In this document: piece after piece, positions 13,227 to 36,335 of the stretch | Numbering within the stretch: the stretch's first letter is position 1 | Layout: the number at the start of each line of letters is the position of its first letter | Assembly: GCA_000165345.1 (NCBI GenBank) | Contig: CM000432.1 | Span: 32,001 to 96,000 of the forward strand | Direction of reading: 5' to 3' | Length of the DNA: 64,000 nucleotides | Notes under the pieces: generated by a model | What the model was told of the DNA's origin: nothing | Seen by the model: the letters and a program-made list of their open reading frames with translations, nothing else | The model's database searches: none | Position numbers and translations under genes: made by a program

Positions 13227-16200
13227 ATGACTGAAGATCAGATAAAAATGTCTTCAACAGATTCTCTGGACTCTTGTTCAATATCTAATTCATCAGATGA
13301 AAATTCTCTGTTTCTCGAAGAAAATTATACAAATATTATTACAATTTCAGATGATAATTTGGAAGATTCAGTTTCAGAAATTGAAGGGGAAATTAGCTCA
13401 AATCTTTCAAGTTTTGAAGAAAACTCTTTAGTTGACAGTTTTTCTTCAGACTCTAATGATCTTAATAAAGATGATGAAAATGAGAAATTAGAAACAAATT
13501 TTGATGATGTTTTTAAAAAATGTGATAATGATGTTTTTATTAATAATAAAGGATTTTCAACAAATTTAAGCCATAAGAATATTTTTAATTATAGTATTAA
13601 TGATTATTTAATATTAGAGCCTTATTTACATTATAGTGAAGAATTTGATAAAAAAGATGACATATTATCTAAGAAATACGACTTAATTAATGGTTTAAAG
13701 CAACAATTAATAGAAGATGAAGATAAATTTGCTGTGAATGGAAACAAAAGGATCTTTCAAGAAGAGCTTATCAAGTTAAACAATCATAATTTTGGTCATC
13801 CTTCATCTATTTGCCATGACAATAATGGACTAATTTTTGTGGGTACAATTAAAGGTTTCTGCTTAATTTTCTTAGAAACAAGCTCAAAGAAGTGTATAGT
13901 TATTGATCCTATTAATGGCTTTTTTTCAAAAATTACTTCAATTTGTATTTCAAAATCAGAAAGTAAAGATTTTGTTTTTTTGTCATTAGCTACTATTGAC
14001 GGAAACCTTTGTCTTTGGAGATTAAATATTGCTAATTTAAAAGAGTTTCTCATGAATGATTGTAATTCATCAAATCATTCAGGCAAAGAAGCTTTACAGG
14101 ATAATATTTTACTTTTTTCCGATTCAAGTAAATGTAATGAAAAAGCATCTCTAGGAGGTACTCAAATTTATCATATTAAAGGCTCAAGTGAAGAAGAGAA
14201 AGAATACTTAAATGATGGTACGATCAAGGATACAGTTAATATAGAGATTAGTAACCAAATTGAAAATGAAGAAGTAATTGAGAATGGAATAGTTTCTAAA
14301 ATGGCTATTTTGTTGAATAATTCTCCAAAACATATAAAGTATGGAATTTTGAATCACGAATTCATTGATATTAGAAGTCAAGAATCTGTTAATAGATTAG
14401 CTATTTTCATTAGTGATTTACAAGGGAATCTTTACGTAACTTTATTAGTTAAAGGGTCTCCAAAAACGAATAATGAAGATGAAACCAATAAAAATATTGA
14501 AAAGATGATAGATGAATGGATAATTCATGAAAAGATCTTCCTTTATAATTCAGAAGAGGATATTATTCATCAGTTTAGAAGTCTTCCTCCTCCACCATTA
14601 AGAAAGAATTTACCCCAAGAAAATACTCAGGTAAATTCAGGACAAACTAGTAAAAGAGAAATTCATCCAATGGATCATTACCAATTTTATTTGGTAGCTG
14701 GAAGAAAGGGATTTTCACTTATTAGTATGCTTCCTCATCCTGCTCTCTGTAATGTAGTGAATTTAGTGGATGATCTAAGAAAAATGAATTTCAAAATACC
14801 TGAGAATGAGATCAATGGAGTTTATTTAACTTGGCTCCGTCCTAGTATAATTTCAAAGAATGCAGAAAGTGTACAGATGCAAATTAGAATCTTAGCTTCA
14901 ATCTCAAGGTATTTGTGTATTTACGAAATAAAATCATTCGAAGAATTTGAGAATTCTGATGAAATTAAGGTCGAGTTAAAATTATCAGCAGTTTGGACAA
15001 TTTTTGACTCAATTCATGGAATATTTGCATTGAGTGAAAATATGATAGCTTTATTAATTGGATTTCGAGGAATTTATATATATCAAATAGTAGAAGATTA
15101 TGATGGATTTAATTCTACTACAAAACTATGTAAAAACACAAACAAACTGAATGTTATAACACAGGCATACATAGAAGAGGAATATCAGCAAAATCTAGAA
15201 CAAAAACAAATACTTGATAATTCGTCAAATAATGTTTTTGATAACTTAAAGAGTCCACAAGATGCATATTTAATTATTAAAAGTAAACCGATAGATTTAA
15301 ACAATCAGGTAAATGAGATGCTAGTTTGCATTCATAAATACAATGACAATAATAAGAAATTATTTGTTGTTTCTCAGACTGTGACAAATGATTTACAAGA
15401 ATCTATTGACTTATTCAGTCAATCTTTTATTCAGTGCAGGACTGGGAAAAGCGTTCGTGTATTACTTCTACTAAATGATAAGATTATTTCACTTTTGATG
15501 TTATTTAAATCGTGGATACCTTTTTTAGAAAATGAATTCAATACAAATATGGAACAAATTAAAAGCTTTATATATGATGATATTTCATGGTCCAGACTTT
15601 CTACATCCTTTATATCACTTTACGAGAAAAGATTACCAAGCCTTCAGACTTGGACAAATATTGATAAAATGATGATTTTAAATATATTAAAAAATATTTT
15701 CAATTCATTATTAGATAATGTAGCTGGTTTCCACTCTAAGATTGAAAGTAAATTATTTGAAGTCTATATAAAGCAAGTTATAAAGCTAATTATAGACTCA
15801 AGTATTAGGTTAAAGTTTTGGGAGTATTTGTTTGAAGAGTTAATACCAGTTATTCAATCTTTAAATTTCGTTCAATTATCTCTAATAGTCAAGGAAGAAC
15901 AGTCAGAAATGATTTCTCTGTTAGACTACTACCTAATTTCGATTGTGGATAGATTTATTGGAAAAGAAATAAGCTGGGAGCTGTTGGATGATGACTTTTT
16001 AAAGCTATTGATTAGCTGGTACAAAAATCGAATTCTAAAATTTGAAAAGCACAAAATTGAGAACAGCCTAGAAGATAATAAGGCCAAAATAGATGATAGT
16101 ATCAATGATATATTTAATCAAGTCCAATTTATTTTGATTAGAACCTTGAAAGTGGACTACTCAGCAACAAGTTCAAATGGAGGAATTGGAAATCCATGGT

Positions 16201-19200
16201 TAGTTTTTGTACCACTATTTAAAAAGTATGACGTTTGGACAAGTTATATATTACTATATCTATTTAGTAGAAAAGATCCAGTTGACCTATTTAAAAGAAT
16301 TATGGTTCAAATGTACGATTATTTCATTCAAGTACATACATTAAACCAACAAAATGAGGCTTTTAATCTGGAAAATAATTTATTACAAGTAATAGATATT
16401 GTTGAATTGCAAAAAAAACTTGAAGAAAACAAAACAATACAAAGCTATTACTACTTTATTTATTCTTTAATTTTTAGAGAAAGTTACCCTTTTAATGAGG
16501 ATGAAGTTAAAGATTTTGACCATTTACAAATAACTAATATTCCATTAATTTTAGATACTGATGTATTTATCAAAGCACTTCTTGAGGAGATTAATGTTGA
16601 AAAACTCAAAATAATTAAAAATAATTGTGAATTATTGATTTTCACTTCATTCAGATTCTATGTATATATATTAGTTGAACTAAAAAAGAAGAAGAACTCT
16701 CTAATACATTTGTCAGAAGAAACTGTTAATGAAGATAATGAAGAGGAGAAAGAGAGAAAAATGGTGAGATTTGAAAAGATTTATTTAATAATGGAAGATC
16801 AATTGGAGTTGTTTGTTTACAAAGTATTGAAAATTGATGAGGCTGATGATTCTAAAAAACTGAATCATTTAATTAATTCTGATTCCCCATTGAAAAAAAA
16901 TTTAGATCTAAAAACTGATATTTTAAAAAACATTATTTGGAAGAGTAGCAAACTTGGGTTATCTGTGAACTATTTATTAGGAAATTACTTGAACTGGGTA
17001 ATATTTAATATTAAAGATTGCAACATTAAGAAAGAGAGCAACTACAAGATATTAATCAATTGTTTCTTTAAAATAATAGAAAAACTAAAAGTTAATTTTG
17101 AAGAAACAGAACAAATTTCAAACTTAGTAAAGAGTATGGAATACAATCTAATAATGGCAATAATAAATAGCAACAGAAATAATGAGGGAATGAATTTTCT
17201 TAATATTCTTTTGAATTGTGTAGGAATTGATAATTATCATACTCAGGAAGATGAATTATTATTTTTTGATCATAATCAAGTTATTAAAGAGTACAATAAA
17301 CTTGAAATGAATCAAAAATTATCTAAAATATTGAAAAAATATTCACTATATAACTTATCATTGTATTTATCAATTCAAGTTTATGATTTGGAAAGTATAT
17401 TGGATATGTACTCAAAGAAGCACTTTATTAATAATAATATTTTGAGAGAATTATATATAATGGATGAAGAGAACAATAATATACTATTTTCACTAAATTA
17501 TATTCTAAGCACAATTGAAAAAGGGATAAATTTTAAGGTATTTGATTATGATCAGGCATTTATATTGATTATTAAATATACAGATTTACTGATTAAGATC
17601 GACTCACTAAATACAATAGACTTGATCATACATATTTTGAGTAGGTGTTTGGATGATGAATTTAATTCCATAAGTAAGAACCCTGTATCGTATTATGCCA
17701 AAATAATTCAAGATGATTTGGACCAAAAAATAAAGAAATTATTATTAGGATCATTGTTATATTACAATGGTACTAAAAATAGTTGTTTTCAGGAAGAAAT
17801 TCTTCTAAGTGATAATTCAATATATAAGAATAAACCAGAATTGAAAAGATGGAATGAGCTGGTTAATCAACTAATACCTCAGTATTTAGAGAGCTTTTTG
17901 AAAGAAAAGAGAACTAATGATTCATCAGTGTTAAATATTTTAGATTACTGGTATCAGAGTTCAGTAAGACATGATGAGTTACTCAATACTCCTTTTGAGA
18001 AATGTTACCACATATGTAGAGAATTAAACAATGAATTTGGAATGATTTATATAAATCAGATATTTTCTGTTAACCCAAATCTATACAACTCTAGTGTTTG
18101 TGAAACGTCAGATCAAATTTTCAAATTTTGCATTTTAAGATTTAAAAGTTATCTTTCAAAAATTAGGGGATTATTAGAGGGAAGATTTAGTAAGGAGACT
18201 TTTAGCTTAAATTCGAAAATGATAGCTAAAGATAAAACTATATTATATTCATTTGATCTTGAAGAGATGAATTCATTAAAGAGTAGAAAAGACTTTTATT
18301 TATTATGGGAGGAATTAATTGAATTTACCAACTTTATTTATTTATATTGCTTTACGAACAATAATTCCAATGTTAATCACTATCATTATGAAATCAAGAA
18401 TGGAAGATATATTGAGTTTTATAAAGATATTTTAGAGTGCTTACTAATAGAAATTGAAAGCATTTCCGAGAGATATAACAGGATATTAACAAAAATAGCA
18501 GAAGAATTTCAAGTTAAAAAGGGAGGTAAAATATCTCAAAATTTGGATTTAAAATTACTTGGGATTGATCTAATAGTTATTTTATACTATATACTGGCTT
18601 GCTTTATACTTGGAAATAATAACTACCAGTATTTATTAGAAAAGTATCTAATAAAGTTTGGTTTTCTTTCAGATTTTCTTTTTAATTCAAAGTTAAATAA
18701 GTTGTTTTCAAGTCCAATTAGCAGTTATTACATTTTTATTAAACCAATTTTGCAGTTAATAGTCAGCGAAGCAAAATCCAAAAGTAATGAAGAAACTAGC
18801 AGAGATCCAAACACAAACTTTCCATGTAAATTTTGGCGCCATTTAGCTCTGGAAATGATGAATTCAAAAATATTCATTGATAAATGCAATGATGAAGTTG
18901 GTCAGCTATTCCAAGGAGATTTACTACATATTTTTTATTCTCTTGTTAATACAATTAAAAAAGCTATAATTGTTCAATTTAATGACCAATCGAATAACTT
19001 TGTGAATTCACACGAGTCGAGATATTTAGAAAATAGAAATAAGATACATGAACAATATTTGAAGTATGGATTAAAGTCAAATTGTTTCTACTGTAAACAG
19101 TCTATTTCTAATTTTGAAGAGGAAGATCTTAAATCAAAAACACAAAACCCTCACTCTTATTCGTTTAATATTATTTCAAATGGGATCAATGAATTTTCGT

Positions 19201-19526
19201 TTAACGATAACAATTTTAATATATTAAACGACAGAAATAGTGAGGGTAGTATTATAATTGAGAGACCAATTCAACGGAAATTCAGTGTGAATGGCAATAG
19301 AGAAAATGAGAATTCCGATGAAGAAAGTGATCCTATGAATATTAATAAACTATATGTATTTCATTGCGGAAATGTTTTTCATAAGAAATGTCTCTATAAC
19401 AGTATTAATAATAAATTTGGTCTCCCGAATGATAAGAAAAATGAAATTTCGGGAAATTTATATACTGGAGATAGAGATTTAACAAATAATTGTTTACATC
19501 AATACAGAGTTTCCTTCAATTATTAA
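13227..19526 (+). CDS. Giant (2099 aa) protein with an N-terminal WD40-like propeller region, a long alpha-solenoid, and a C-terminal RING-H2-like motif; Vps8/CORVET-HOPS-like
   Basis: ATG at 13227. The N-terminal beta-propeller-like segment (FVGTIKGFCLIFLE...LATIDGNLCLWRLN) and the C-terminal ...LYVFHCGNVFHKKCL resemble the Vps8/Vps41 class architecture. The functional assignment is tentative. Confidence 0.5.
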   Translation: MTEDQIKMSSTDSLDSCSISNSSDENSLFLEENYTNIITISDDNLEDSVSEIEGEISSNLSSFEENSLVDSFSSDSNDLNKDDENEKLETNFDDVFKKCDNDVFINNKGFSTNLSHKNIFNYSINDYLILEPYLHYSEEFDKKDDILSKKYDLINGLKQQLIEDEDKFAVNGNKRIFQEELIKLNNHNFGHPSSICHDNNGLIFVGTIKGFCLIFLETSSKKCIVIDPINGFFSKITSICISKSESKDFVFLSLATIDGNLCLWRLNIANLKEFLMNDCNSSNHSGKEALQDNILLFSDSSKCNEKASLGGTQIYHIKGSSEEEKEYLNDGTIKDTVNIEISNQIENEEVIENGIVSKMAILLNNSPKHIKYGILNHEFIDIRSQESVNRLAIFISDLQGNLYVTLLVKGSPKTNNEDETNKNIEKMIDEWIIHEKIFLYNSEEDIIHQFRSLPPPPLRKNLPQENTQVNSGQTSKREIHPMDHYQFYLVAGRKGFSLISMLPHPALCNVVNLVDDLRKMNFKIPENEINGVYLTWLRPSIISKNAESVQMQIRILASISRYLCIYEIKSFEEFENSDEIKVELKLSAVWTIFDSIHGIFALSENMIALLIGFRGIYIYQIVEDYDGFNSTTKLCKNTNKLNVITQAYIEEEYQQNLEQKQILDNSSNNVFDNLKSPQDAYLIIKSKPIDLNNQVNEMLVCIHKYNDNNKKLFVVSQTVTNDLQESIDLFSQSFIQCRTGKSVRVLLLLNDKIISLLMLFKSWIPFLENEFNTNMEQIKSFIYDDISWSRLSTSFISLYEKRLPSLQTWTNIDKMMILNILKNIFNSLLDNVAGFHSKIESKLFEVYIKQVIKLIIDSSIRLKFWEYLFEELIPVIQSLNFVQLSLIVKEEQSEMISLLDYYLISIVDRFIGKEISWELLDDDFLKLLISWYKNRILKFEKHKIENSLEDNKAKIDDSINDIFNQVQFILIRTLKVDYSATSSNGGIGNPWLVFVPLFKKYDVWTSYILLYLFSRKDPVDLFKRIMVQMYDYFIQVHTLNQQNEAFNLENNLLQVIDIVELQKKLEENKTIQSYYYFIYSLIFRESYPFNEDEVKDFDHLQITNIPLILDTDVFIKALLEEINVEKLKIIKNNCELLIFTSFRFYVYILVELKKKKNSLIHLSEETVNEDNEEEKERKMVRFEKIYLIMEDQLELFVYKVLKIDEADDSKKLNHLINSDSPLKKNLDLKTDILKNIIWKSSKLGLSVNYLLGNYLNWVIFNIKDCNIKKESNYKILINCFFKIIEKLKVNFEETEQISNLVKSMEYNLIMAIINSNRNNEGMNFLNILLNCVGIDNYHTQEDELLFFDHNQVIKEYNKLEMNQKLSKILKKYSLYNLSLYLSIQVYDLESILDMYSKKHFINNNILRELYIMDEENNNILFSLNYILSTIEKGINFKVFDYDQAFILIIKYTDLLIKIDSLNTIDLIIHILSRCLDDEFNSISKNPVSYYAKIIQDDLDQKIKKLLLGSLLYYNGTKNSCFQEEILLSDNSIYKNKPELKRWNELVNQLIPQYLESFLKEKRTNDSSVLNILDYWYQSSVRHDELLNTPFEKCYHICRELNNEFGMIYINQIFSVNPNLYNSSVCETSDQIFKFCILRFKSYLSKIRGLLEGRFSKETFSLNSKMIAKDKTILYSFDLEEMNSLKSRKDFYLLWEELIEFTNFIYLYCFTNNNSNVNHYHYEIKNGRYIEFYKDILECLLIEIESISERYNRILTKIAEEFQVKKGGKISQNLDLKLLGIDLIVILYYILACFILGNNNYQYLLEKYLIKFGFLSDFLFNSKLNKLFSSPISSYYIFIKPILQLIVSEAKSKSNEETSRDPNTNFPCKFWRHLALEMMNSKIFIDKCNDEVGQLFQGDLLHIFYSLVNTIKKAIIVQFNDQSNNFVNSHESRYLENRNKIHEQYLKYGLKSNCFYCKQSISNFEEEDLKSKTQNPHSYSFNIISNGINEFSFNDNNFNILNDRNSEGSIIIERPIQRKFSVNGNRENENSDEESDPMNINKLYVFHCGNVFHKKCLYNSINNKFGLPNDKKNEISGNLYTGDRDLTNNCLHQYRVSFNY

Positions 19527-19726
19527 CTGTATCAAAAAAATTATGTATATTTCGACTATATATTTATTTAAAAAAAAAAAGTTAAGAACAATTATAAAAT
19601 ACTGAAATTAGTACTTTAAACTCTCAAATAATAAATTAATTCATATATATTTTTCTTTTATTTACTTTGCATTTTTTTTCTTTAATCCATTTTGCATGTA
19701 ATTAAGATATTTTAGATTCCCCCCTA

Positions 19727-19745
19727 GCGCGCCTTGGCGGCAAAT
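19727..19745. promoter_or_regulatory. GCGCGCC and TTGGCGGCAAA boxes upstream of the repeat-protein gene
   Basis: ccccctagcGCGCGCCTTGGCGGCAAAtgc. A GCATGTA lies nearby at 19694. Confidence 0.35.
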
Positions 19746-20197
19746 GCACCATTCTTTATTTTTTAGATATCGAAATTAAAAATTAATAATAAATGTGTCA
19801 CAATTGATAGGTATCGGGTACCTATATTAATTAATGGTTTTATTAACAAATAAAACTTTAAGAAAAAAATAAATTAAAAGTCGAGTGCATGTACGGAATT
19901 AAAAATTAATAGTCAGATCAATAAAAAAAAAGATTCTTAAAAAAATTAAATGATTTAAATGTGTGTAATAAATAGAGGAAAAGTGAATTAATTTGAATAC
20001 CGAATCATAATCAATACAAGCAGATTACATTACAGCCAAATAAAAGTTTGTGAGTCTATGATTTTTTTTTTTTGTCAGTTAAAGTTTTCTAAGTTATAAG
20101 GCTTTTTATTTATTATTTTTTTTTTTTTTATATTAATATTATTAGTAATTAAATAATGAAACGTAATATTTAAATTAAATAAGTTAATTAATAAATA

Positions 20198-23100
20198 ATG
20201 ACAATTTCTAGAAGCAGTTCATCATTAAATGAAGATGGAAAAATCAATCGAAGTAAGATTGTTCCATATATTACAAGAGAGATGAGTATTGCTCAGCTTC
20301 AAGATAAGAAATACCATAGTTTTGTGCAAAATACATTGGCAGATTATCAAGCAAGTGCATTTGATGCTCAGAAAATTGCATTGGAAAAAGATAAAGAGCT
20401 TAAAGAGTTGAGAGATACACAAAATTCAGTTAAGGTTTCGTTAAAGTATTATCAAGAGAAATGCCAGCAGTTAGAAAATGAGCTTAAAGCAACTTCAATG
20501 GGGCTATTATATGGGAGGAAGGAAAAAGAACAAGAGAGAGAAATTGCAAGATTGAGTACTGAAATAACAAGTTTTGAGAAAAAAAAAGAGGAGTTAGAAA
20601 CAAACTTGAGATATTATCAAGATAGAGAAATGTATTTACAGCACGAGTTGGAACTTAAAGAAAATGAATTAAATAAGCTATCTCAAGAATTTGCCACTTT
20701 AACAGAGACATATAATAGTACATATTCGGAATTAGAGAAATGTAAATTTGACTTAAGTACGGAACAGAATAATAATAAAACATTAGAAAATCAATTAAAA
20801 GTAAAGAATGACGAGATTACAAAATATAAAGGAAGTTTAACAACTAAAGAAGCGGAAATTAATAATTTGAAGAATGAAATACAAAAATTGAACTCAATGG
20901 TTGAAATCAATAAATCTGAAATAAATACTATTAGTGAGCAGCTTAAATTAAAACAGAAAGAGTGCTTAGATTATAGTAGTAAGATTCAACAAATAGAATT
21001 GGATATGAGAAAAAACTTGGATGAAAACGAAGTATTAATTAAGGATTTAAATTCACAGATAACTTTGACTAGAAATGACTTGACTCAAAAGGTTGAATTA
21101 ATTAATGAGTTAAACTCTCGAATTTCTACATTAGATTTAAAGCTACAAGAATCGTCAAGAGATATATTGGAAAAAGAAAAAACTATAGGAAAGCTTAAAG
21201 CTGAACAGCAGATTACTAGTTTAGAGGCTGATGGTCTTAAAACGAAGATTCAGATTATTGAACAAGAGAAAACCAATATTGAACAAGAAATTGAAACGAT
21301 ATTGGTAGAAAAGAAAAAAATAGATGAAGAACTTAAAGATACAATTAATAGGAAGAATTCCAAGTTAGATGAAGCTTTAACTTACAGAATTGAATCAGCT
21401 ATAACTGCTGAGAGAGAAATTAATCAACTTAAAGAAAAGAACCAAATAATTGAATTTGAGAAAAAAATGATGGAGGAAAAATTGGAAATTTCTAATAATA
21501 ATATAAAAATAAAAGATGATGAAATTCAACAACTTAAAACTACAATCCAAGATCTTAATCGACAAAATATTAAACTTGAGAATGAGCTTCATTCATTACA
21601 AGAAAGTAGCAGAAGAGAAAGTGTGGAGAATACATTTAGAAGTAGTAGAATTGGCTCAAATATTGTAAGTAGTAAAATCAATGCATCATCTGGGTCTACA
21701 GTTAATACCAGTGAAAATACAATTTCTAGTAATATAGCAACTAGTAATGCTGAAACTGTTGAAAAAGTAGTTAATGCTGATACTTTAGTTGACACATCTA
21801 TTCAAGATTCAGCTGTAAATGCTGCTTCTACAACAGTTAAAATGCCATCATCCAAATCAATTTCAAGTAAAAGTGCAATTTCCTCATTGCCAAAGCCAAA
21901 AGCTAAAAGTGCAGTTAAATCAGCTCCTGCTACTGAAGAGAATAACGGTGATCAAACAATATCTGAACCTGCATCTATATCTGAAGTTAAATCTAAAGCT
22001 GGAAGTAAATCAATGCCAGTTTCAAAATCCAAATCTGTAATTAAAGCTAAATCTCAGGTTGTTGCTAAATCCGATATGGATTCTGGACAAATTGTAAAGG
22101 AAGACAATGAGACCAAGGACAATGAGGATGAAGCGGCCAAGGTTAGAGCTCAGAAAGAAAAGGAGGAAGCAGAAGCAAAAGCTTTAAAAGAGAAGGAAGA
22201 AGCTGAGGCCAAAGCCAAGAAAGAAAAAGAAGAGGCTGAGGCTAAAGCTTTAAAGGAGAAAGAAGAAGCTGAGGCCAAAGCTAAGAAAGAAAAGGAGAAG
22301 GAAGAAGCTGAGGCCAAAGCTAAGAAAGAAAAAGAGGAAGCTGAGGCCAAGGCTAAGAAGGAAAAGGAAGAAGCTGAGGCCAAAGCTTTAAAAGAGAAAG
22401 AAGAAGCTGAGGCTAAAGCCAAGAAAGAAAAGGAGAAGGAAGAAGCTGAGGCCAAGGCAAAGAAAGAAAAAGAGGAGGCTGAGGCTAAAGCTAAAAAGGA
22501 GAAGGAGGAGGCTGAGGCAAAGGCCAAGAAGGAGAAGGAGGAAGCTGAAGCCAAAGCTAAGAAAGAGAAGGAGGAAGCTGAGGCCAAAGCTAAGAAAGAA
22601 AAAGAGGAAGCTGAGGCCAAGGCTAAGAAGGAGAAGGAGGAAGCTGAGGCCAAGGCTAAAAAGGAGAAGGAAGAGGCTGAGGCTAAAGCCAAGAAAGAAA
22701 AGGAGGAGGCTGAGGCTGAGGCTGAGGCAAAGGCAAAGAAAGAAAAGGAGGAGGCTGAGGCAAAGGCCAAGAAGGAGAAGGAAGAAGCTGAGGCCAAAGC
22801 TAAGAAAGAGAAGGAGGAAGCTGAGGCCAAAGCTAAGAAAGAAAAAGAGGAAGCTGAGGCCAAGGCTAAAAAGGAAAAAGAGGAGGCTGAGGCTAAAGCC
22901 AAGAAAGAAAAAGAAGAGGCTGAGGCTAAAGCTAAGAAGGAGAAGGAGGAAGCTGAGGCCAAGGCTAAAAAGGAGAAGGAAGAGGCTGATACAAAAGAGA
23001 AAGAGAAGACAGAAATCAAAGAAAATTCAAAAATAGATTCAGATAGTGAGGAAAACTCTGAATCTAAAGAAAAGAAGTCAACTGGACTACTTGCTAAGAC

Positions 23101-25699
23101 AATAGCAAAAGCTAAGGCAAAATCAAAGTCTAATTCTGTCTTATCAAAGCTTCCTTCTAAAGTTAATAAAGAAACAAGCAAAGCTGAGAATGATTTAGAA
23201 AATGAGATAGAAAAAGATGATGAATCAAATAAAAAAGAAACTAAAAAGGAGGAAGATTCAATAGCAAAGCTTAAAGCAAAAGTACCTGTTAAGCCAAGTC
23301 CTTTATTGAAATCAAAGAGTGAAAAAGAAAAGGAGAAAGAAGAAGATAAAGATGAGGAGAAGAAAGAAAAGGACAAAGAGAAAAAGGAAAAGTTAAAAGA
23401 AAAAGAAGAGGAAGGTAAGGAGAAAAGTAATGAAAAGGATAAAGGAGAAGATAAGGATGAAAAGGATAAATCAAAAAGTAAAATAAAAGACTCTCAGAAA
23501 GAGGAAAAATTAGAAGAAACGGAGAAAAATTCATTAAAGAAAGAGTCCAAAGATGATGAGAAGAAAGAAAAGGAGGATCCAATAGCGAAACTTAAGGCGA
23601 AAGTACCTGTTAAGCCAAGTCCTTTATTGAAATCAAAGAGTGAAAAAGAAAAGGAGAAAGAAGATAAAGATGAGGAGAAGAAAGAAAAGGAGGACAAAGA
23701 GAAAAAGGAAAAGTTAAAAGAAAAAGGAGAGGAAGGCAAGGAAAAGGAGGAAGGTAAAGAAAAGGAGAAAGAGAAAGAAAAGGATGAAAAGGATAAATCA
23801 AAAAGTAAAACAAAAGATTTTGAGAAAGAAAAATTAAAGGAAACTGAAAAGGGCGAAAAAGAAGCCGAAAAAGATTCATCAAAGAAAGAGTCCAAAGATG
23901 AGGAGAAGAAAGAAAAGGAGGATCCAATAGCAAAACTTAAGGCAAAGGTACCTGTTAAGCCAAGTCCTTTATTGAAATCAAAGAGTGAAAAAGAAAAGGA
24001 GAAAGAAGAAGATAAAGATGAGGAGAAGAAAGAAAAGGAGGACAAAGAGAAAAAAGAAAAGTTAAAAGAAAAAGAAGAGGAAGGTAAAGAAAAAGAGAAA
24101 GAAAAGGTCAAAGCTCAAAAGAAAAAAGATGAAAAGGAAGAAAAAGATAAGGACGAAAAAGAAGATGATAAAGAAAAGAGTAAAGAAAGTGAAAATCTTG
24201 AAAAAAAACCAACTATTTCAGAAAAAGTTATAAACCCTGAAGGTAAAATTGATGAGAAGGACTCAGAAAAAGAAACTTTAAATCATAGTAAAACTAAGGA
24301 AATTGCTAAAACAAAGGCTGCAGCTCAACTTAAGGCAGCTATATTAGCAAGAGCATCATCTAAAAAGAATATATCAGCTGATAATAGTGAAGATTCAAAG
24401 TTAAAGAAATCTGAATCTAAGAAAGATATTATCAAAGATGAAGCCAAAGATGAAAGTAAGACAAATAAAGATGGAAAGGATCTCAAAAAAACTTTGAAAG
24501 AAGGTGAGGGTTCAATTTCAAAGGTTAAAGGAAAAGGTAAGGTAAAGACTAAGGCAAAGGCAAAAGAAGCCCCACCTCCAGCTGAAGAATCAAGTTGGTT
24601 CAGTGGTTGGTTTGGAACTTCAGCACCGGAAGAACCTCCCAAAGAAGAGGAGAAAAAAGAAGAGAAAAAAGAGGATGAAACGCCGCCACCACCACCACCA
24701 GCTGAGGAGTCAAGTTGGTTCAGTGGTTGGTTTGGAACCTCAGCACCTGAAGAACCACCTAAGGAGGATCCAGCGAAAAAACCTCCTAAAAAGCATTTAG
24801 TTAAGAAATCATCTTCTGTGAAGAAAGATGATGGCGAAAAGAAAGAAGAAAAGGAGGAAAAGAAGGAGGTGAAGAAAGACGAAAAAGAGGAGAAGAAAGA
24901 TGAAAAAGAGGATAAGAAAGACGAAAAGAAGGAAGGAATAGAGGAGACAAAAGAGAAGAAAGAGGAGAAGAAGGAAGGTGACGAAAAGAAGGATGAAACA
25001 GATAATAAGGAGGTAAAGGAAATTGCTGAAAAGGAAAAAACAGGGGTAGACCCAGAGAAAAAAGCTGTCAAAGCAAAGACAAAATCTAAAGCAAAGGCTA
25101 AAGCTAAGGAAGAGCCACCTCCTGCACCACCAGCAGAAGAATCAAGTTGGTTCAGTGGTTGGTTTGGAGCTTCAGCACCGGAAGAACCTCCTAAAGAAGA
25201 GGAGAAAAAAGAAGAGAAAAAAGAGGATGCACCACCAGCTGAAGAGTCGAGCTGGTTCGGCGGTTGGTTTGGAGCCTCCACACCTGAAGAGCCACCTAAG
25301 GAAGATCCAGCAAAAAGACCTACTCCAAAAGTACATCCGGCAAAAAAATCATCCTCCGTGAAGAAGGATAATGATGAAAAGAAAGAAGAAAAGGAGGAAA
25401 AGAAGGAGGAGAAAAAAGAGGAAAAGAAGGAGGAGAAGAAAGAGGAAAAGGAGGAAAAGAAAGAGGACGATGAAAAAGAAAAAAAAGTAGTAAAAGCTAA
25501 AACAAAAACAAAAGCAAAAGCAAAAGCCAAGGCTAAGGAAGAGCCACCTCCTGCACCACCAGCAGAAGAGTCAAGCTGGTTCAGTGGCTGGTTTGGAGCT
25601 GCTGCACCCGCAGAGCCCGAGCCAGAACCAAATAAAGAAGAGCCAAAGGAGGAACAAAAAACTGAGGAACCTGCTGCAACATCCTGGTGGGGATGGTAA
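20198..25699 (+). CDS. Modular tandem-repeat protein (1833 aa): a coiled-coil N-terminus, then ~30 copies of KEKEEAEAKAKK, three copies of a ~110-aa K/E-rich module, five EESSWFSGWFG aromatic islands, and a terminal SWWGW
   Basis: Uninterrupted 5.5-kb ORF from ATG 20198. The first ~480 aa have heptad-like K/E/L/Q coiled-coil composition. The repeat arrays keep the reading frame and show variation mainly at synonymous positions. An E2F-like box lies downstream at 25831. Confidence 0.7.
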   Translation: MTISRSSSSLNEDGKINRSKIVPYITREMSIAQLQDKKYHSFVQNTLADYQASAFDAQKIALEKDKELKELRDTQNSVKVSLKYYQEKCQQLENELKATSMGLLYGRKEKEQEREIARLSTEITSFEKKKEELETNLRYYQDREMYLQHELELKENELNKLSQEFATLTETYNSTYSELEKCKFDLSTEQNNNKTLENQLKVKNDEITKYKGSLTTKEAEINNLKNEIQKLNSMVEINKSEINTISEQLKLKQKECLDYSSKIQQIELDMRKNLDENEVLIKDLNSQITLTRNDLTQKVELINELNSRISTLDLKLQESSRDILEKEKTIGKLKAEQQITSLEADGLKTKIQIIEQEKTNIEQEIETILVEKKKIDEELKDTINRKNSKLDEALTYRIESAITAEREINQLKEKNQIIEFEKKMMEEKLEISNNNIKIKDDEIQQLKTTIQDLNRQNIKLENELHSLQESSRRESVENTFRSSRIGSNIVSSKINASSGSTVNTSENTISSNIATSNAETVEKVVNADTLVDTSIQDSAVNAASTTVKMPSSKSISSKSAISSLPKPKAKSAVKSAPATEENNGDQTISEPASISEVKSKAGSKSMPVSKSKSVIKAKSQVVAKSDMDSGQIVKEDNETKDNEDEAAKVRAQKEKEEAEAKALKEKEEAEAKAKKEKEEAEAKALKEKEEAEAKAKKEKEKEEAEAKAKKEKEEAEAKAKKEKEEAEAKALKEKEEAEAKAKKEKEKEEAEAKAKKEKEEAEAKAKKEKEEAEAKAKKEKEEAEAKAKKEKEEAEAKAKKEKEEAEAKAKKEKEEAEAKAKKEKEEAEAKAKKEKEEAEAEAEAKAKKEKEEAEAKAKKEKEEAEAKAKKEKEEAEAKAKKEKEEAEAKAKKEKEEAEAKAKKEKEEAEAKAKKEKEEAEAKAKKEKEEADTKEKEKTEIKENSKIDSDSEENSESKEKKSTGLLAKTIAKAKAKSKSNSVLSKLPSKVNKETSKAENDLENEIEKDDESNKKETKKEEDSIAKLKAKVPVKPSPLLKSKSEKEKEKEEDKDEEKKEKDKEKKEKLKEKEEEGKEKSNEKDKGEDKDEKDKSKSKIKDSQKEEKLEETEKNSLKKESKDDEKKEKEDPIAKLKAKVPVKPSPLLKSKSEKEKEKEDKDEEKKEKEDKEKKEKLKEKGEEGKEKEEGKEKEKEKEKDEKDKSKSKTKDFEKEKLKETEKGEKEAEKDSSKKESKDEEKKEKEDPIAKLKAKVPVKPSPLLKSKSEKEKEKEEDKDEEKKEKEDKEKKEKLKEKEEEGKEKEKEKVKAQKKKDEKEEKDKDEKEDDKEKSKESENLEKKPTISEKVINPEGKIDEKDSEKETLNHSKTKEIAKTKAAAQLKAAILARASSKKNISADNSEDSKLKKSESKKDIIKDEAKDESKTNKDGKDLKKTLKEGEGSISKVKGKGKVKTKAKAKEAPPPAEESSWFSGWFGTSAPEEPPKEEEKKEEKKEDETPPPPPPAEESSWFSGWFGTSAPEEPPKEDPAKKPPKKHLVKKSSSVKKDDGEKKEEKEEKKEVKKDEKEEKKDEKEDKKDEKKEGIEETKEKKEEKKEGDEKKDETDNKEVKEIAEKEKTGVDPEKKAVKAKTKSKAKAKAKEEPPPAPPAEESSWFSGWFGASAPEEPPKEEEKKEEKKEDAPPAEESSWFGGWFGASTPEEPPKEDPAKRPTPKVHPAKKSSSVKKDNDEKKEEKEEKKEEKKEEKKEEKKEEKEEKKEDDEKEKKVVKAKTKTKAKAKAKAKEEPPPAPPAEESSWFSGWFGAAAPAEPEPEPNKEEPKEEQKTEEPAATSWWGW
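22150..22990 (+). repeat. Coding tandem array with a 36-nt period, about 30 copies of KEKEEAEAKAKK
   Basis: Units of the form gaa gaa gct gag gcc aaa gct aag aaa gaa aag gag recur with gag/gaa, gct/gcc/gca and aag/aaa wobble changes. Occasional KEKEKEE (+6 nt) and EAEAEAEA variants occur. Confidence 0.85.
23257..24110 (+). repeat. Three tandem ~330-nt coding repeats (DPIAKLKAKVPVKPSPLLKSKSEKEKEKEEDKDEEKKEK...GKEK)
   Basis: The copies start near 23257, 23577 and 23917. The DNA is nearly identical between copies, with small indels. Confidence 0.8.
24580..25699 (+). repeat. Five interspersed PPPAEESSWFSGWFG(T/A)SAPEEPPKE islands in two alternating flavours, plus a terminal TSWWGW
   Basis: The gaatcaagttggttcagtggttggtttgga-type segments lie at about 24586, 24706, 25140, 25243 and 25569. 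They form a higher-order A/B repeat. Confidence 0.8.
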
Positions 25700-26326: not shown

Positions 26327-26979
26327 ATGGGAGATAACAAAAGAATGACTCTGGTAAGTTTAACAACTATGCTTATTGGCCTTAATTAATTTTTTATTAT
26401 AAATATTTAAAGGAACTCAGAGGCCTCCAAGTATTTACAGACGAGCTTGAAGAAGATAAGCAGGTTGGAATAAAGCTGATTGGTAATAGAAACGACAACT
26501 TTTTGGGTATTATTAGAGGGCCTATAGGAACACCATATGAAGGTGGTATATTCCAACTTGATATTATTGTACCAAAAGAATATCCATACGAGCCTCCAAA
26601 AGTTAAATTCATCACAAGAATTTGGCATCCGAATATTTCTAGTCAAACAGGAGCTATTTGCTTGGATATTTTAAAAGATGCCTGGAGCCCTGCTTTAACT
26701 CTTAGAACAGTAATGCTTTCTATACAAGCATTACTCTCTTCTCCTGAACCAAATGATCCTCAAGATGCATTGGTCGCATCTCTATACAAAAGTGATTACC
26801 AAGAATATATTGAAACGGCCAAAAGTTGGACACAAATGTATGCAAAGCCAACATCAAAGGAAGAAAGGATTAAGAGATTTCTTGATATGGGATTCAACCG
26901 TGAATCTATAATAACAGCACTAGAAAGAAATAATTGGGATGAAAATCTCGCTCTAAATGAGCTATTATTTGAAAACTAA
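26327..26979 (+). CDS. Ubiquitin-conjugating enzyme E2 with a C-terminal UBA domain (UBE2K/E2-25K-like). Two exons: 26327..26353 and 26413..26979
   Basis: UBC core HPNISSQTGAICLDILKDAWSPALTLRTV and the UBA-like tail EERIKRFLDMGFNRESIITALERNNWDENLALNELL match UBE2K closely. The ORF has no ATG of its own. ATGGGAGATAACAAAAGAATGACTCTG followed by GTAAGT at 26354 and TTTAAAG at 26406..26412 splices in frame, giving a 59-nt intron. Confidence 0.75.
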
Positions 26980-36297: not shown

Positions 36298-36321
36298 AAT
36301 AATAATAATAATAATAATAAT
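36298..36321. repeat. (AAT)8 microsatellite immediately 5' of the Sec31 start
   Basis: aataataataataataataataat. The track's TTG start at 36321 lies inside it. The real ATG is at 36336. Confidence 0.8.
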
Positions 36322-36335
36322 TGAAATTTATTTCA

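What the first reader, a model, noticed from the sequence alone, without database searches (positions are those of the whole stretch)
20198..25699. 5.5-kb gene for a modular tandem-repeat protein: coiled coil, ~30 KEKEEAEAKAKK units, three ~110-aa modules, five SWFSGWFG islands and a terminal SWWGW
This is the most unusual locus in the window. One uninterrupted ORF contains three distinct repeat systems at nested scales.
- The 36-nt array (22150-22990) varies almost only at synonymous positions: gag/gaa, gct/gcc/gca and aag/aaa. That pattern argues that selection maintains the peptide periodicity, in frame, rather than a recent slippage expansion.
- The C-terminal aromatic islands (EESSWFSGWFG[T/A]SAPEEPPKE) are the only W/F clusters in an otherwise purely K/E/A/P sequence. 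They alternate in an A/B higher-order repeat, and the protein ends in TSWWGW.
- GW/WG/FG dipeptides embedded in charged, disordered regions are the defining feature of Argonaute-hook/GW182-type motifs and of nucleoporin FG repeats. Either would be unexpected here, and the motif may instead be a membrane-inserting or cytoskeleton-binding module.
No signal peptide is present, so it is probably cytosolic or cytoskeletal.
Basis: seen in the sequence. Interest (0 to 1): 0.7.

Follow-up and report, generated by a model that had tools for sequence, protein, structure and literature searches.

The report
Cryptosporidium rod protein with tryptophan hooks
This is a real, intact gene (cgd4_200 of Cryptosporidium parvum) for a 209-kDa protein found only in this parasite genus; it appears to be a long stiff rod carrying six conserved tryptophan/phenylalanine "hooks" at its far end, probably to capture a partner such as a vesicle coat, although its function has never been tested.

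Summary
The ORF 20198-25699 (+) is intact and encodes 1833 aa. Its DNA is identical in two chromosome-scale C. parvum assemblies. By gene order it is cgd4_200.

- The array unit is 33 nt / 11 aa (KEEAEAKAKKE), not 36 nt.
- There are 24-25 units, not about 30.
- The three modules (107/115-aa spacing), the five EESSWF[S/G]GWFG islands in an A/B ~180-aa super-repeat, and the terminal SWWGW are all present.

Selection on the peptide is clear. Eighteen distinct nucleotide units encode only two peptide units, and variable nucleotide columns by codon position are 1/1/11.

Anatomy:
- A 482-aa heptad coiled coil, the only part traceable across the genus.
- A ~305-residue, hydrophobic-free E/K/A helix, probably a single alpha-helix spacer of ~45 nm.
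- Charged modules.
- Disordered, proline-flanked, acidic (net -5) aromatic islands displayed between K/E helices.

An exhaustive profile search found relatives only in Cryptosporidium. Pfam and PDB sequence searches gave nothing.

The GW182, FG-nucleoporin and published SAS-4 readings fail their defining tests. My best reading is a tether-like scaffold with multivalent acidic-aromatic linear motifs. That function is inferred, not shown. Interest is moderate.

The parts
20198..25699 (+). Complete CDS of cgd4_200: 1833 aa, 208.8 kDa, pI 5.75, single exon
   Evidence: ORF list. Identical in L005 and L006. Lies between the primer sites of cgd4_190 (19257) and cgd4_210 (26682). Mass and pI.
20198..21643 (+). 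N-terminal conserved coiled coil (aa 1-482), ending in SSRRESVENTFRS. This is the only part traceable across the genus.
   Evidence: 61-62% identity to C. bovis and C. ryanae. C. andersoni matches at E = 8e-41. Heptad (3.5-residue) Fourier power is 2.32, against a maximum of 1.51 in 1000 shuffles. Only 3 substitutions relative to C. hominis.
21644..22153 (+). Divergent S/T/K-rich linker (aa 483-652) containing a PKPKAKS-type basic motif (21887-21922)
   Evidence: Alignment A1 loses conservation after aa 482. PKPKAKS-like strings recur in C. bovis and C. ryanae. Composition.
22154..22990 (+). Array of 24 full units plus one partial of the 33-nt / 11-aa repeat KEEAEAKAKKE. Predicted to be a single alpha-helix (ER/K-type) spacer.
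   Evidence: TRF gives period 33 and 24.8 copies. Unit table; synonymous-only variation. Residues are 68-75% charged, with no hydrophobic residues and no Pro/Gly. No heptad signal. AF2 predicts one continuous helix over aa 642-946 (nt 22121-23035) with mean pLDDT 77.
23222..24154 (+). Three ~107-115-aa K/E/D-rich modules. Each begins with D[SP]IAKLKAKVPVKPSPLLKSKS (23255-23320, 23576-23641, 23921-23986).
   Evidence: Repeat family D3. TRF periods 321 and 345. Motif coordinates.
24521..24565 (+). Basic (K-x)n patch KVKGKGKVKTKAKAK preceding island 1. Equivalent patches lie at 25070-25108 and 25493-25537.
   Evidence: conserved in C. hominis and C. meleagridis.
24572..24649 (+). Aromatic island 1 (A-type): PPPAEESSWFSGWFGTSAPEEPPKEE
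   Evidence: AF2 shows it disordered, pLDDT < 50.
24692..24769 (+). Aromatic island 2 (B-type): PPPAEESSWFSGWFGTSAPEEPPKED
24839..25039 (+). K/E-rich helical spacer 1 (aa 1548-1614)
   Evidence: AF2 helix H114-180 of the segment, pLDDT 70-80. Site of indels between species.
25124..25201 (+). Aromatic island 3 (A-type): APPAEESSWFSGWFGASAPEEPPKEE
25229..25306 (+). Aromatic island 4 (B-type): APPAEESSWFGGWFGASTPEEPPKED
25373..25516 (+). K/E-rich helical spacer 2 (aa 1726-1773)
   Evidence: AF2 helix H292-339 of the segment. Indels between species.
25553..25630 (+). Aromatic island 5: APPAEESSWFSGWFGAAAPAEPEPEP
   Evidence: Island 5 through the C-terminus is 56/57 identical in three species.
25682..25696 (+). 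C-terminal SWWGW, ending at the free carboxylate
   Evidence: Identical in C. hominis and C. meleagridis.

Best explanation
cgd4_200 encodes a Cryptosporidium-restricted protein with no signal peptide and no membrane-spanning segment. I read it as a rod-shaped scaffold that works like a tether or capture arm.

Shown here:
- The N-terminal 482 aa form a heptad coiled coil. It is the most conserved part and the only part recognisable in distant Cryptosporidium species.
- The 11-aa array, and probably the other K/E blocks, have the composition of a single alpha-helix (ER/K type): about 70% charged residues, no hydrophobic seam, and an AF2 prediction of one continuous 305-residue helix. If straight, that helix would span about 45 nm.
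- Selection preserves the peptide of the array. Copy number (24 units against 28 in C. hominis) and even the unit itself (8 aa in C. ryanae) drift between species.
- The C-terminal 390 aa alternate K/E helices with disordered, proline-flanked segments. These segments display five copies of AEESSWF[S/G]GWFG plus a terminal SWWGW-COOH. Each 26-aa island carries net charge -5.

Inferred:
- The coiled coil dimerises the protein and anchors it somewhere.
- The charged helices act as stiff spacers.
- The six acidic-aromatic islands per chain (twelve per dimer) act as multivalent short linear motifs that dock into hydrophobic pockets of a folded partner domain.
- The most likely partner is a component of a vesicle coat or of the trafficking machinery. 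The precedents are the Trp-based motifs of the Dsl1 lasso and of ArfGAP1/Gcs1, which bind delta-COP, and the terminal S-W-[F/L] vesicle-capture motif of golgin-84, TMF and GMAP-210.
- The partner, and the organelle at either end of the rod, are unknown.
For: - The ORF is intact and identical in two chromosome-scale assemblies.
- Coiled coil: heptad power 2.32 against a shuffle maximum of 1.51; 61-62% identity to C. bovis and C. ryanae, and E = 8e-41 to C. andersoni.
- Single alpha-helix: composition and i/i+4 E-K pair score, no heptad signal, and one AF2 helix over aa 642-946 with mean pLDDT 77.
- Selection on the array peptide: 18 nucleotide variants encode 2 peptide variants; 950 synonymous against 54 non-synonymous codon differences.
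- The array sits at the same position in other species but differs in sequence or period.
- The islands are disordered and lie between helices, carry net charge -5, and differ between copies mainly at synonymous sites.
- The islands are invariant in C. hominis and retained in C. meleagridis, while the K/E blocks take the indels.
- Precedents from the literature: the terminal M-S-W-L/F capture motif with an essential Trp in three golgins (PMC5267433); Trp-based motifs surrounded by negative charge in a disordered loop that bind the delta-COP mu-homology domain, held exposed about 20 nm above the membrane (PMC7145657; PMC4868844).
Against: - No experiment or localisation was found for this protein. 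The only literature mention is a BLAST table.
- The resemblance to golgin and delta-COP motifs covers only 3-5 residues and is easily matched by chance.
- No known membrane-anchoring module (transmembrane segment, GRIP, GRAB) was detected.
- In golgins the capture motif sits at the extreme N-terminus in a single copy. Here the motifs are C-terminal or internal and in several copies.
- Conservation of the islands could be checked only in the close trio C. parvum, C. hominis and C. meleagridis. In C. bovis, C. ryanae and C. andersoni the contigs end inside the charged array, so their C-termini were not seen.
- The AF2 runs used a single sequence, and a monomer prediction cannot tell a single alpha-helix from a coiled coil.
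Confidence: 0.4

Rival explanations
1. It is a structural cytoskeletal, pellicle or centrosome-associated scaffold. The coiled coil and charged helices would build a filament or matrix. The aromatic islands would act as 'stickers' for self-association or condensation, or would bind a cytoskeletal partner such as tubulin or the subpellicular network.
For: - A long coiled coil with no signal peptide or transmembrane segment.
- Aromatic clusters separated by charged spacers resemble the sticker-and-spacer layout of scaffold proteins.
- Alternating (K-x)n basic patches lie before the islands; these could bind the acidic tails of tubulin (my inference).
- cgd4_200 was listed as a BLAST hit of a centrosomal protein (PMC4348508).
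Against: - No homology to any cytoskeletal family. The profile search found only Cryptosporidium proteins, and Pfam and PDB gave nothing.
- The array has no hydrophobic seam through which it could polymerise.
- The acidic flanks and proline-bounded, disordered presentation of the islands are typical of docking motifs.
Confidence: 0.25
2. The islands are membrane-inserting elements, like ALPS or MARCKS motifs. A basic patch would attract acidic lipid, and the W/F cluster would insert into the bilayer interface. The protein would then tether membranes directly.
For: - The core S-S-W-F-S-G-W-F-G-T-S has bulky aromatics among Ser/Gly/Thr, as in ALPS motifs. If helical, the four aromatics fall within a ~140 degree arc (my calculation from the sequence).
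- (K-x)n patches precede islands 1, 3 and 5.
- The islands are disordered in solution according to the AF2 model, as ALPS motifs are before they bind membrane (my knowledge).
Against: - Only 15 helix-competent residues lie between the flanking prolines, whereas ALPS motifs are 20-40 aa.
- The hydrophobic moment is only 0.27-0.46.
- Each island carries net charge -5, which should repel anionic membranes.
- B-type islands have no basic patch in front of them.
Confidence: 0.12
3. It is a fast-evolving low-complexity repeat protein, for example an immunodominant K/E-rich antigen, whose aromatic islands have no specific binding role and are alike only because they duplicated recently.
For: - Copy number and unit sequence of the charged arrays differ between species.
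- The family is restricted to one genus.
- Islands 1 and 3 are 94% identical at the nucleotide level.
Against: - Other island pairs are only 71-78% identical in DNA yet keep the core intact, with mostly synonymous changes.
- The array shows strong purifying selection on its peptide.
- Island 5 through the tail is 56/57 identical across three species, while the neighbouring K/E blocks take indels.
- The N-terminal domain is highly conserved.
Confidence: 0.1
4. It is an FG-nucleoporin-like protein whose GWFG/SWFG motifs bind transport receptors in the nuclear pore.
For: - FG-containing motifs separated by highly charged spacers, plus a coiled coil, superficially recall Nsp1/Nup62-type FxFG nucleoporins (my knowledge).
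- There are 6 FG dipeptides.
Against: - Six FG dipeptides in 1833 aa is far below a typical FG domain.
- No Nsp1_C, Nup98 or other nucleoporin domain was found, and there were no PDB hits.
- The islands are spaced 35-144 aa apart, not about 10-20 aa.
Confidence: 0.05
5. It carries GW182-type tryptophan hooks that bind Argonaute or the CCR4-NOT subunit CNOT9.
For: Trp residues flanked by Gly/Ser in a disordered region; 6 GW and 1 WG.
Against: - Cryptosporidium has no detectable Argonaute or Dicer (PMC9465071).
- No GW182 domains were found.
- Without a signal peptide, delivery to the host cell is unlikely.
Confidence: 0.03
6. It is the Cryptosporidium orthologue of the centriole protein SAS-4/CPAP, as tabulated by Suvorova et al. 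2015.
For: Listed as the human SAS-4 BLAST hit at e-14 (PMC4348508 Table 1).
Against: - The family-defining C-terminal G-box (TCP10_C) is not detected by Pfam at E <= 1.
- A full-length phmmer search against all PDB chains at E <= 0.01 and the N-terminal profile at E <= 0.1 returned no hits at all; that CPAP G-box structures are among those chains is my knowledge, not something I checked.
- The exhaustive profile search returned no SAS-4-like proteins from other eukaryotes.
- The BLAST score is most simply explained by coiled-coil and K/E composition.
Confidence: 0.03

Closest known systems
Golgin vesicle tethers golgin-84, TMF and GMAP-210
   Same: A long rod-like protein with a short terminal capture motif containing an essential Trp: M-S-W-L/F (PMC5267433) against S-W-F (five times) and S-W-W here. 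The capture end lies far from the presumed anchoring end.
   Different: No sequence homology. No transmembrane, GRAB or Rab-binding anchor was detected. Here the motifs are C-terminal or internal and in several copies, rather than a single copy at the N-terminal Met. Much of the rod is predicted single alpha-helix rather than coiled coil.
delta-COP-binding di-Trp motifs (ELM LIG_deltaCOP1_diTrp_1) of the Dsl1 lasso and ArfGAP1/Gcs1
   Same: Trp-x(n)-Trp/Phe motifs surrounded by acidic residues in a disordered segment, displayed at a distance from a membrane. WFSGW, WFSGWF and the terminal WWGW fit the W-x(1-6)-[WF] pattern. That pattern, and the Gcs1 motif lying at the extreme C-terminus, are recalled from Suckling et al. 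2015, which I could not read.
   Different: Unrelated proteins. The islands are longer (about 22 conserved residues), have paired WF dipeptides and proline-rich flanks. Binding is untested.
Single alpha-helix (SAH, ER/K) domains, e.g. in myosin VI and X, caldesmon, INCENP
   Same: About 70% E/K with dense i/i+4 opposite-charge pairs, no hydrophobic seam, and a prediction of one uninterrupted helix.
   Different: It is built from a near-perfect 11-aa tandem repeat rich in Ala, about 300 residues long, with copy number and unit varying between species. Its monomeric state is untested.
GW182/TNRC6 Argonaute-hook proteins
   Same: GW/WG-type Trp residues in a disordered region.
   Different: Only 7 such dipeptides. 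No Argonaute in the organism. No shared domains.
FxFG nucleoporins (Nsp1/Nup62 type)
   Same: Aromatic-Gly motifs with charged spacers, plus a coiled coil.
   Different: Only 6 FG dipeptides, wide spacing, no nucleoporin domain.
SAS-4/CPAP (published BLAST assignment for cgd4_200)
   Same: A coiled coil with K/E-rich stretches.
   Different: No G-box/TCP10_C domain; the BLAST match is most simply a composition effect.

Membership tests
Single alpha-helix (ER/K) domain | Very high E/K(R) content with dense i/i+4 opposite-charge pairs, and no Pro/Gly | tested here: met
   68-75% charged, no Pro/Gly, and the array (0.28-0.34) and module K/E blocks (0.37-0.39) give the highest pair scores in the protein across aa 653-931.
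Single alpha-helix (ER/K) domain | No hydrophobic heptad seam, so not a coiled coil | tested here: met
   No hydrophobic residues in most windows. Fourier power at period 3.5 is 0.01, against 2.32 in the N-terminal coiled coil.
Single alpha-helix (ER/K) domain | Forms a stable monomeric helix in solution | not testable with these tools
   AF2 predicts one continuous helix over aa 642-946 with pLDDT 77. The monomeric state needs circular dichroism and ultracentrifugation.
Golgin-type vesicle tether | Long coiled-coil rod | tested here: met
   aa 1-482 show significant heptad periodicity and are conserved.
Golgin-type vesicle tether | Organelle anchor at one end (transmembrane, GRIP, GRAB or Rab-binding domain) | tested here: not met
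   No transmembrane segment (maximum KD19 of 0.52). No GRIP or GRAB match in Pfam. An unrecognised anchor within the conserved N-terminus cannot be excluded.
Golgin-type vesicle tether | Terminal M-S-W-L/F capture motif with an essential Trp | tested here: inconclusive
   S-W-F occurs five times and S-W-W lies at the C-terminal end. However, the motifs are not at the N-terminal Met, and the match is only 3 residues.
delta-COP di-Trp ligand (ELM LIG_deltaCOP1_diTrp_1) | Trp-based motif in a disordered region surrounded by negative charge | tested here: met
   WFSGWF and WWGW. Disordered in AF2. Net charge -5 per 26-aa island. Class description from PMC7145657.
delta-COP di-Trp ligand (ELM LIG_deltaCOP1_diTrp_1) | Binds the mu-homology domain of delta-COP | not testable with these tools
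   Needs binding assays, or complex prediction with C. parvum delta-COP.
GW182/TNRC6 Argonaute hook | An Argonaute partner is present in the organism | tested here: not met
   Dicer and Argonaute are not detectable in Cryptosporidium (PMC9465071).
GW182/TNRC6 Argonaute hook | Many GW/WG repeats, plus the family's UBA, Q-rich and RRM domains | tested here: not met
   6 GW and 1 WG. No Pfam domains.
FG nucleoporin | A dense array of FG repeats (tens, spaced about 10-20 aa apart) | tested here: not met
   6 FG dipeptides, in islands 35-144 aa apart.
FG nucleoporin | A nuclear-pore anchoring domain (Nsp1_C, Nup98 APD and the like) | tested here: not met
   No Pfam hit and no PDB hit.
SAS-4/CPAP | C-terminal G-box (TCP10_C) domain | tested here: not met
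   No Pfam match at E <= 1 in any non-array segment. No PDB chain matched. AF2 shows no beta structure in the C-terminal 399 aa.
ALPS-type amphipathic lipid-packing sensor | A 20-40-aa helix with bulky hydrophobics, a Ser/Thr/Gly polar face and few charges | tested here: not met
   Only 15 residues lie between the prolines, the flanks are acidic (net -5), and the hydrophobic moment is 0.27-0.46. The core composition is ALPS-like, but the length and charge are not.

The most novel reading that the evidence does not exclude
cgd4_200 is a genus-specific 'inverted golgin'. A dimeric coiled coil would be anchored at one organelle. It would carry a ~45-nm single-alpha-helix ruler, whose length is tuned by repeat copy number, and a C-terminal brush of twelve acidic WF-x-x-WF hooks per dimer. 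These hooks would form a previously undescribed class of coat- or vesicle-capturing linear motif. In a parasite that has lost most recognisable golgins, the protein would direct traffic to one of its specialised secretory organelles.
Probability: 0.2. Interest if true: 0.6.

Novelty: new variant of a known kind. Interest (0 to 1): 0.42.

Why it matters
Cryptosporidium is a major cause of childhood diarrhoea. Its secretory and invasion machinery is built largely from lineage-specific proteins of unknown function.

This gene gives three testable handles. The first is a compact aromatic peptide motif that can be used directly as bait to find its partner. The second is a natural molecular ruler, a very long, repeat-encoded single alpha-helix whose copy number differs between species. 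The third is a conserved coiled-coil anchor.

If the hooks bind a coat or vesicle component, the protein would be a parasite-specific tether and a new linear-motif class.

There are also practical consequences. The published SAS-4 label for cgd4_200 should be dropped. The C. bovis, C. ryanae, C. andersoni and C. meleagridis gene models are truncated by repeat-induced assembly breaks or frameshifts. The array is a candidate length-polymorphic marker between C. parvum and C. hominis.

Tried and rejected
1. Full-length protein search. It was swamped by low-complexity K/E candidates and gave one irrelevant hit.
2. Search with the islands alone. It returned only three weak hits (E 5e-5 to 8e-3): two TPR-domain proteins and one unannotated protein, all from metagenomes. 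No Cryptosporidium hit appeared. The C. parvum, C. hominis and C. meleagridis versions of this protein are not in that collection at all.
3. Metagenome DNA pattern scans for EESSWFxGWFG (0 hits) and for two WFxxWF cores 80-110 nt apart (at least 120 hits). On translation, all inspected hits were out-of-frame or antisense readings of simple tandem repeats.
4. Attempts to reach the C-termini of distant orthologues:
   - The contigs of C. bovis, C. ryanae and C. andersoni all end inside the charged array.
5. Supplement hunts for localisation or expression of cgd4_200:
   - The hyperLOPIT paper is not held.
   - Two papers have no supplements held as text.
   - Three more papers have supplements that do not mention the gene.
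   - The 2012 qPCR atlas omits cgd4_200.
6. Literature search for the motif strings WFSGWF, WFGGWF, SWFSGW and SWWGW: 0 papers.
7. Other linear-motif classes were checked by eye against consensus patterns recalled from memory, and rejected:
   - LIR ([WFY]xx[LIV]), where Gly sits at a disallowed position.
   - The gamma-ear/GAE motif.
   - AP-2 alpha WxxF, DPW and FxDxF.
   - The clathrin W-box PWxxW.
   - Pex5 WxxxF/Y (from my knowledge, Cryptosporidium has no peroxisomes).
   - P[ST]AP and FFAT.
8. No fold search was run on the AF2 models. They are a single helix and disorder, so any match would be meaningless.


Full report
**Identity of the locus.** The window is Cryptosporidium parvum chromosome 4. 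The upstream ORF 13227-19526 is an exact match to cgd4_190 (EAK87695.1, Q5CQM0). Published qPCR primers place cgd4_190 at 19257 and cgd4_210 at 26682. The ORF between them, 20198-25699 (+), is therefore cgd4_200. It encodes 1833 aa (208.8 kDa, pI 5.75) in a single exon. Its DNA is identical in two chromosome-scale records, CP029783.1 and CP141121.1.

**Orthologues.**
- The C. hominis orthologue is 1871 aa.
- C. meleagridis (CM077710.1) has frameshifts in the module zone but keeps the whole C-terminus in another frame.
- Short-read (Logan) contigs of C. parvum and C. hominis end about 680 aa into the gene, at the start of the array.
- The reference contigs of C. bovis, C. ryanae and C. andersoni likewise end inside their own charged arrays, about 760-790 codons into the gene.
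- The repeats therefore break assemblies, but where they are spanned the copy number is reproducible.

**Check of the observation.** The description is essentially right, with numerical corrections.
- TRF gives a 33-nt period with 24.8 copies at 22147-22989.
- By hand there are 24 units of KEEAEAKAKKE: 21 of 11 aa, 2 of 13 aa and 1 of 15 aa. The unit is not 36 nt, and there are not about 30.
- The three large modules start at 23222, 23543 and 23888, spaced 107 and 115 aa. Each opens with D[SP]IAKLKAKVPVKPSPLLKSKS.
- Five islands with the core EESSWF[S/G]GWFG lie at nt 24590, 24710, 25142, 25247 and 25571.
- The protein ends in TSWWGW, and all 13 Trp are in the islands or the tail.
- Islands alternate as A-type (followed by PKEEEKKEEKKED) and B-type (followed by PKEDPAK.P..K.H..KKSSSVKKD) within a ~180-aa super-repeat.
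- All strong tandem repeats of the 64-kb window lie in this gene.

**Selection.**
- Among the 21 canonical array units, all 11 third-codon positions vary. Only one codon varies at positions 1 and 2 (Lys to Leu in three units).
- Eighteen distinct nucleotide units encode two peptide units.
- Pairwise codon differences are 950 synonymous against 54 non-synonymous, although only 17% of random single-base changes would be synonymous.
- The islands behave the same way. Nucleotide identity between copies falls to 71-78%, yet the 11-aa core has a single amino-acid change.
- Between C. parvum and C. hominis there are 61 substitutions plus indels. The indels concentrate in K/E blocks: C. hominis has 28 array units against 24. 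The islands are untouched, and the N-terminal 482 aa carry 3 substitutions.
- C. meleagridis keeps five islands (variants SWFSSWFG and SWFGGWFG) and the tail. Island 5 through the C-terminus is 56/57 identical in all three species.
- These three species are close relatives, so conservation of the islands across the whole genus remains untested.

**Anatomy.**
1. aa 1-482 form a coiled coil. Hydrophobic periodicity at 3.5 residues has power 2.32, against a maximum of 1.51 in 1000 shuffles. Identity to C. bovis and C. ryanae is 61-62%. The domain ends in the invariant SSRRESVENTFRS.
2. aa 483-652 are a divergent S/T/K linker.
3. aa 653-931 are the array. It is 68-75% charged, has essentially no hydrophobic residue and no Pro or Gly, and has dense i/i+4 Glu-Lys pairs. 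It shows no heptad signal. AlphaFold2 predicts one uninterrupted helix over aa 642-946 with mean pLDDT 77. This is the signature of a single alpha-helix (ER/K) domain. At 0.15 nm per residue it would span about 45 nm.
4. In C. ryanae the array at the same position has an 8-aa unit (AKEEAEKK). In C. andersoni it is a K/E/T/I-rich repeat. The property (a charged helix) is conserved, while the sequence is not.
5. aa 1009-1319 hold the three modules, which are K/E/D-rich.
6. For aa 1435-1833, AlphaFold2 shows two K/E helices (aa 1548-1614 and 1726-1773, pLDDT 70-80). They separate disordered, proline-rich segments (pLDDT below 50) that carry the islands.
7. Each 26-aa island has net charge -5. Islands 1, 3 and 5 are preceded by alternating (K-x)n basic patches.
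8. There is no signal peptide and no transmembrane segment.

**Relatives.**
- Pfam gives nothing above threshold, only coiled-coil noise such as ATG16 and MAD.
- A phmmer search with the full protein and a profile search with the N-terminal alignment, both against all PDB chains, gave zero hits.
- An exhaustive HMMER profile search of 1.84 billion representative proteins with the N-terminal alignment found only Cryptosporidium proteins below E = 1e-10: the C. bovis cluster and C. andersoni cand_010220 at 8e-41. Five further hits (E 3e-9 to 6e-4) were weak, partial coiled-coil-type matches to metagenome proteins, only one of which carries a name.
- Gene order (MMS19, cgd4_190, this gene) is conserved in all species examined.
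- The family is therefore genus-restricted, as far as sequence methods can see.

**What it is not.**
- The only literature mention lists cgd4_200 as the BLAST hit (e-14) of human SAS-4/CPAP (PMC4348508). The defining G-box is absent, so the match is most simply a composition effect.
- An Argonaute hook is excluded within the parasite, because Cryptosporidium lacks Argonaute and Dicer (PMC9465071).
- An FG nucleoporin is unlikely, with 6 FG dipeptides in 1833 aa and no pore-anchoring domain.
- An ALPS-like membrane-inserting helix is disfavoured. Only 15 residues lie between the prolines, the hydrophobic moment is 0.27-0.46, and the flanks are strongly acidic.

**Most likely mechanism (inferred).** The protein looks like a rod with a conserved anchoring or dimerising coiled coil at one end, charged-helix spacers in the middle, and a multivalent display of acidic-aromatic short linear motifs at the other end. 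Acidic, disordered, Trp/Phe-based motifs are the standard way that accessory and tethering proteins dock onto coat domains. Two precedents are close in form.
- Trp-based motifs surrounded by negative charge, in the Dsl1 lasso and in ArfGAP1/Gcs1, bind the delta-COP mu-homology domain. The Dsl1 lasso is held exposed about 20 nm above the membrane (ELM class LIG_deltaCOP1_diTrp_1, PMC7145657; PMC4868844).
- The terminal M-S-W-L/F motif of golgin-84, TMF and GMAP-210 has an essential Trp and captures vesicles at the end of the rod farthest from its anchor (PMC5267433).

WFSGWF and the C-terminal WWGW fit the first pattern, and S-W-F/S-W-W echoes the second. These are resemblances of 3-5 residues, so they are leads and not tests. 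I put 0.4 on the tether/capture-arm reading. About 0.25 goes to a structural cytoskeletal or matrix scaffold, and the rest is spread over the other rivals.

**Novelty and interest.** The gene is annotated but uncharacterised. The motif strings appear in no paper in the library. The combination of a coiled coil, a ~300-residue repeat-encoded single alpha-helix and a brush of WF-x-x-WF islands has no described family. I class it as a new variant of a known kind: long rod-like scaffolds that carry linear motifs. Interest is moderate at 0.42. The anatomy is striking, selection is clear and it is directly testable, but no functional or localisation evidence exists yet, and the motif's conservation beyond the C. 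parvum clade could not be checked.

Noticed in passing
window 13227-19526 (+): The upstream neighbour cgd4_190 (2099 aa, annotated as a 'large low complexity protein') has sub-threshold Pfam hits to the C-terminal RING fingers of Vps8 and Vps41 (E about 7e-4 to 9e-4). It may be a divergent CORVET/HOPS-type tether subunit. Its adjacency to cgd4_200 is conserved in C. bovis, C. ryanae and C. andersoni.
   Followed up: partly
window 36321-40415 (+): This ORF looks like Sec31: an N-terminal WD40 propeller, a Sec16/Sec31 TPR_Sec16 hit above threshold, and a weak, sub-threshold C-terminal SRA1 hit. Its P/S/N-rich region, which has PPPPPPP runs and a VPWPLP segment, coincides with the GC bump to 0.40 at 38-40 kb.
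   Followed up: partly
window 26327-26979 (+): The downstream gene cgd4_210 is a ubiquitin-conjugating E2; the orthologous C. meleagridis gene model carries a weak Pfam UBA hit in its C-terminal part. It contains a 59-nt intron at about 26354-26412, and the spliced product is 197 aa.
   Followed up: partly
window 22150-23376 (-) and 24325-25530 (-): Long antisense ORFs (408 and 401 aa, S/F/L-rich) lie opposite the repeats. They are mirror-image artefacts of stop-free purine-rich repeats, not genes.
   Followed up: yes
L011 (C. bovis), L012 (C. ryanae), L013 (C. andersoni): gene starts at 10001 and runs to the contig end: The reference gene models of the orthologues are truncated because the contigs end inside the charged array. 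The C. bovis model is named 'myosin heavy chain, partial'. The C. andersoni model cand_010220 has a 3' end that does not match the open frame, which continues to the contig end.
   Followed up: partly
L004 (C. meleagridis CM077710.1) 16908-22590: The orthologue is split by frameshifts in the ~110-aa module zone. The called product (1134 aa) therefore lacks the island-bearing C-terminus, which is intact in another frame. These are probably homopolymer errors in A-rich repeats rather than a pseudogene.
   Followed up: partly
window 21887-21922, 23255-23320, 23576-23641, 23921-23986: Two further recurrent short motifs were seen. A PKPKAKS-type basic motif in the linker is also present in C. bovis and C. 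ryanae. D[SP]IAKLKAKVPVKPSPLLKSKS opens each of the three modules. Both may be additional docking or phosphorylation (S-P) sites.
   Followed up: no
window 20198-25699 (database behaviour): The C. parvum, C. hominis and C. meleagridis products of this gene are absent from the 15-billion-protein collection by exact look-up, although gene calls for them exist on the NCBI contigs. Homology searches therefore returned only distant Cryptosporidium species.
   Followed up: partly
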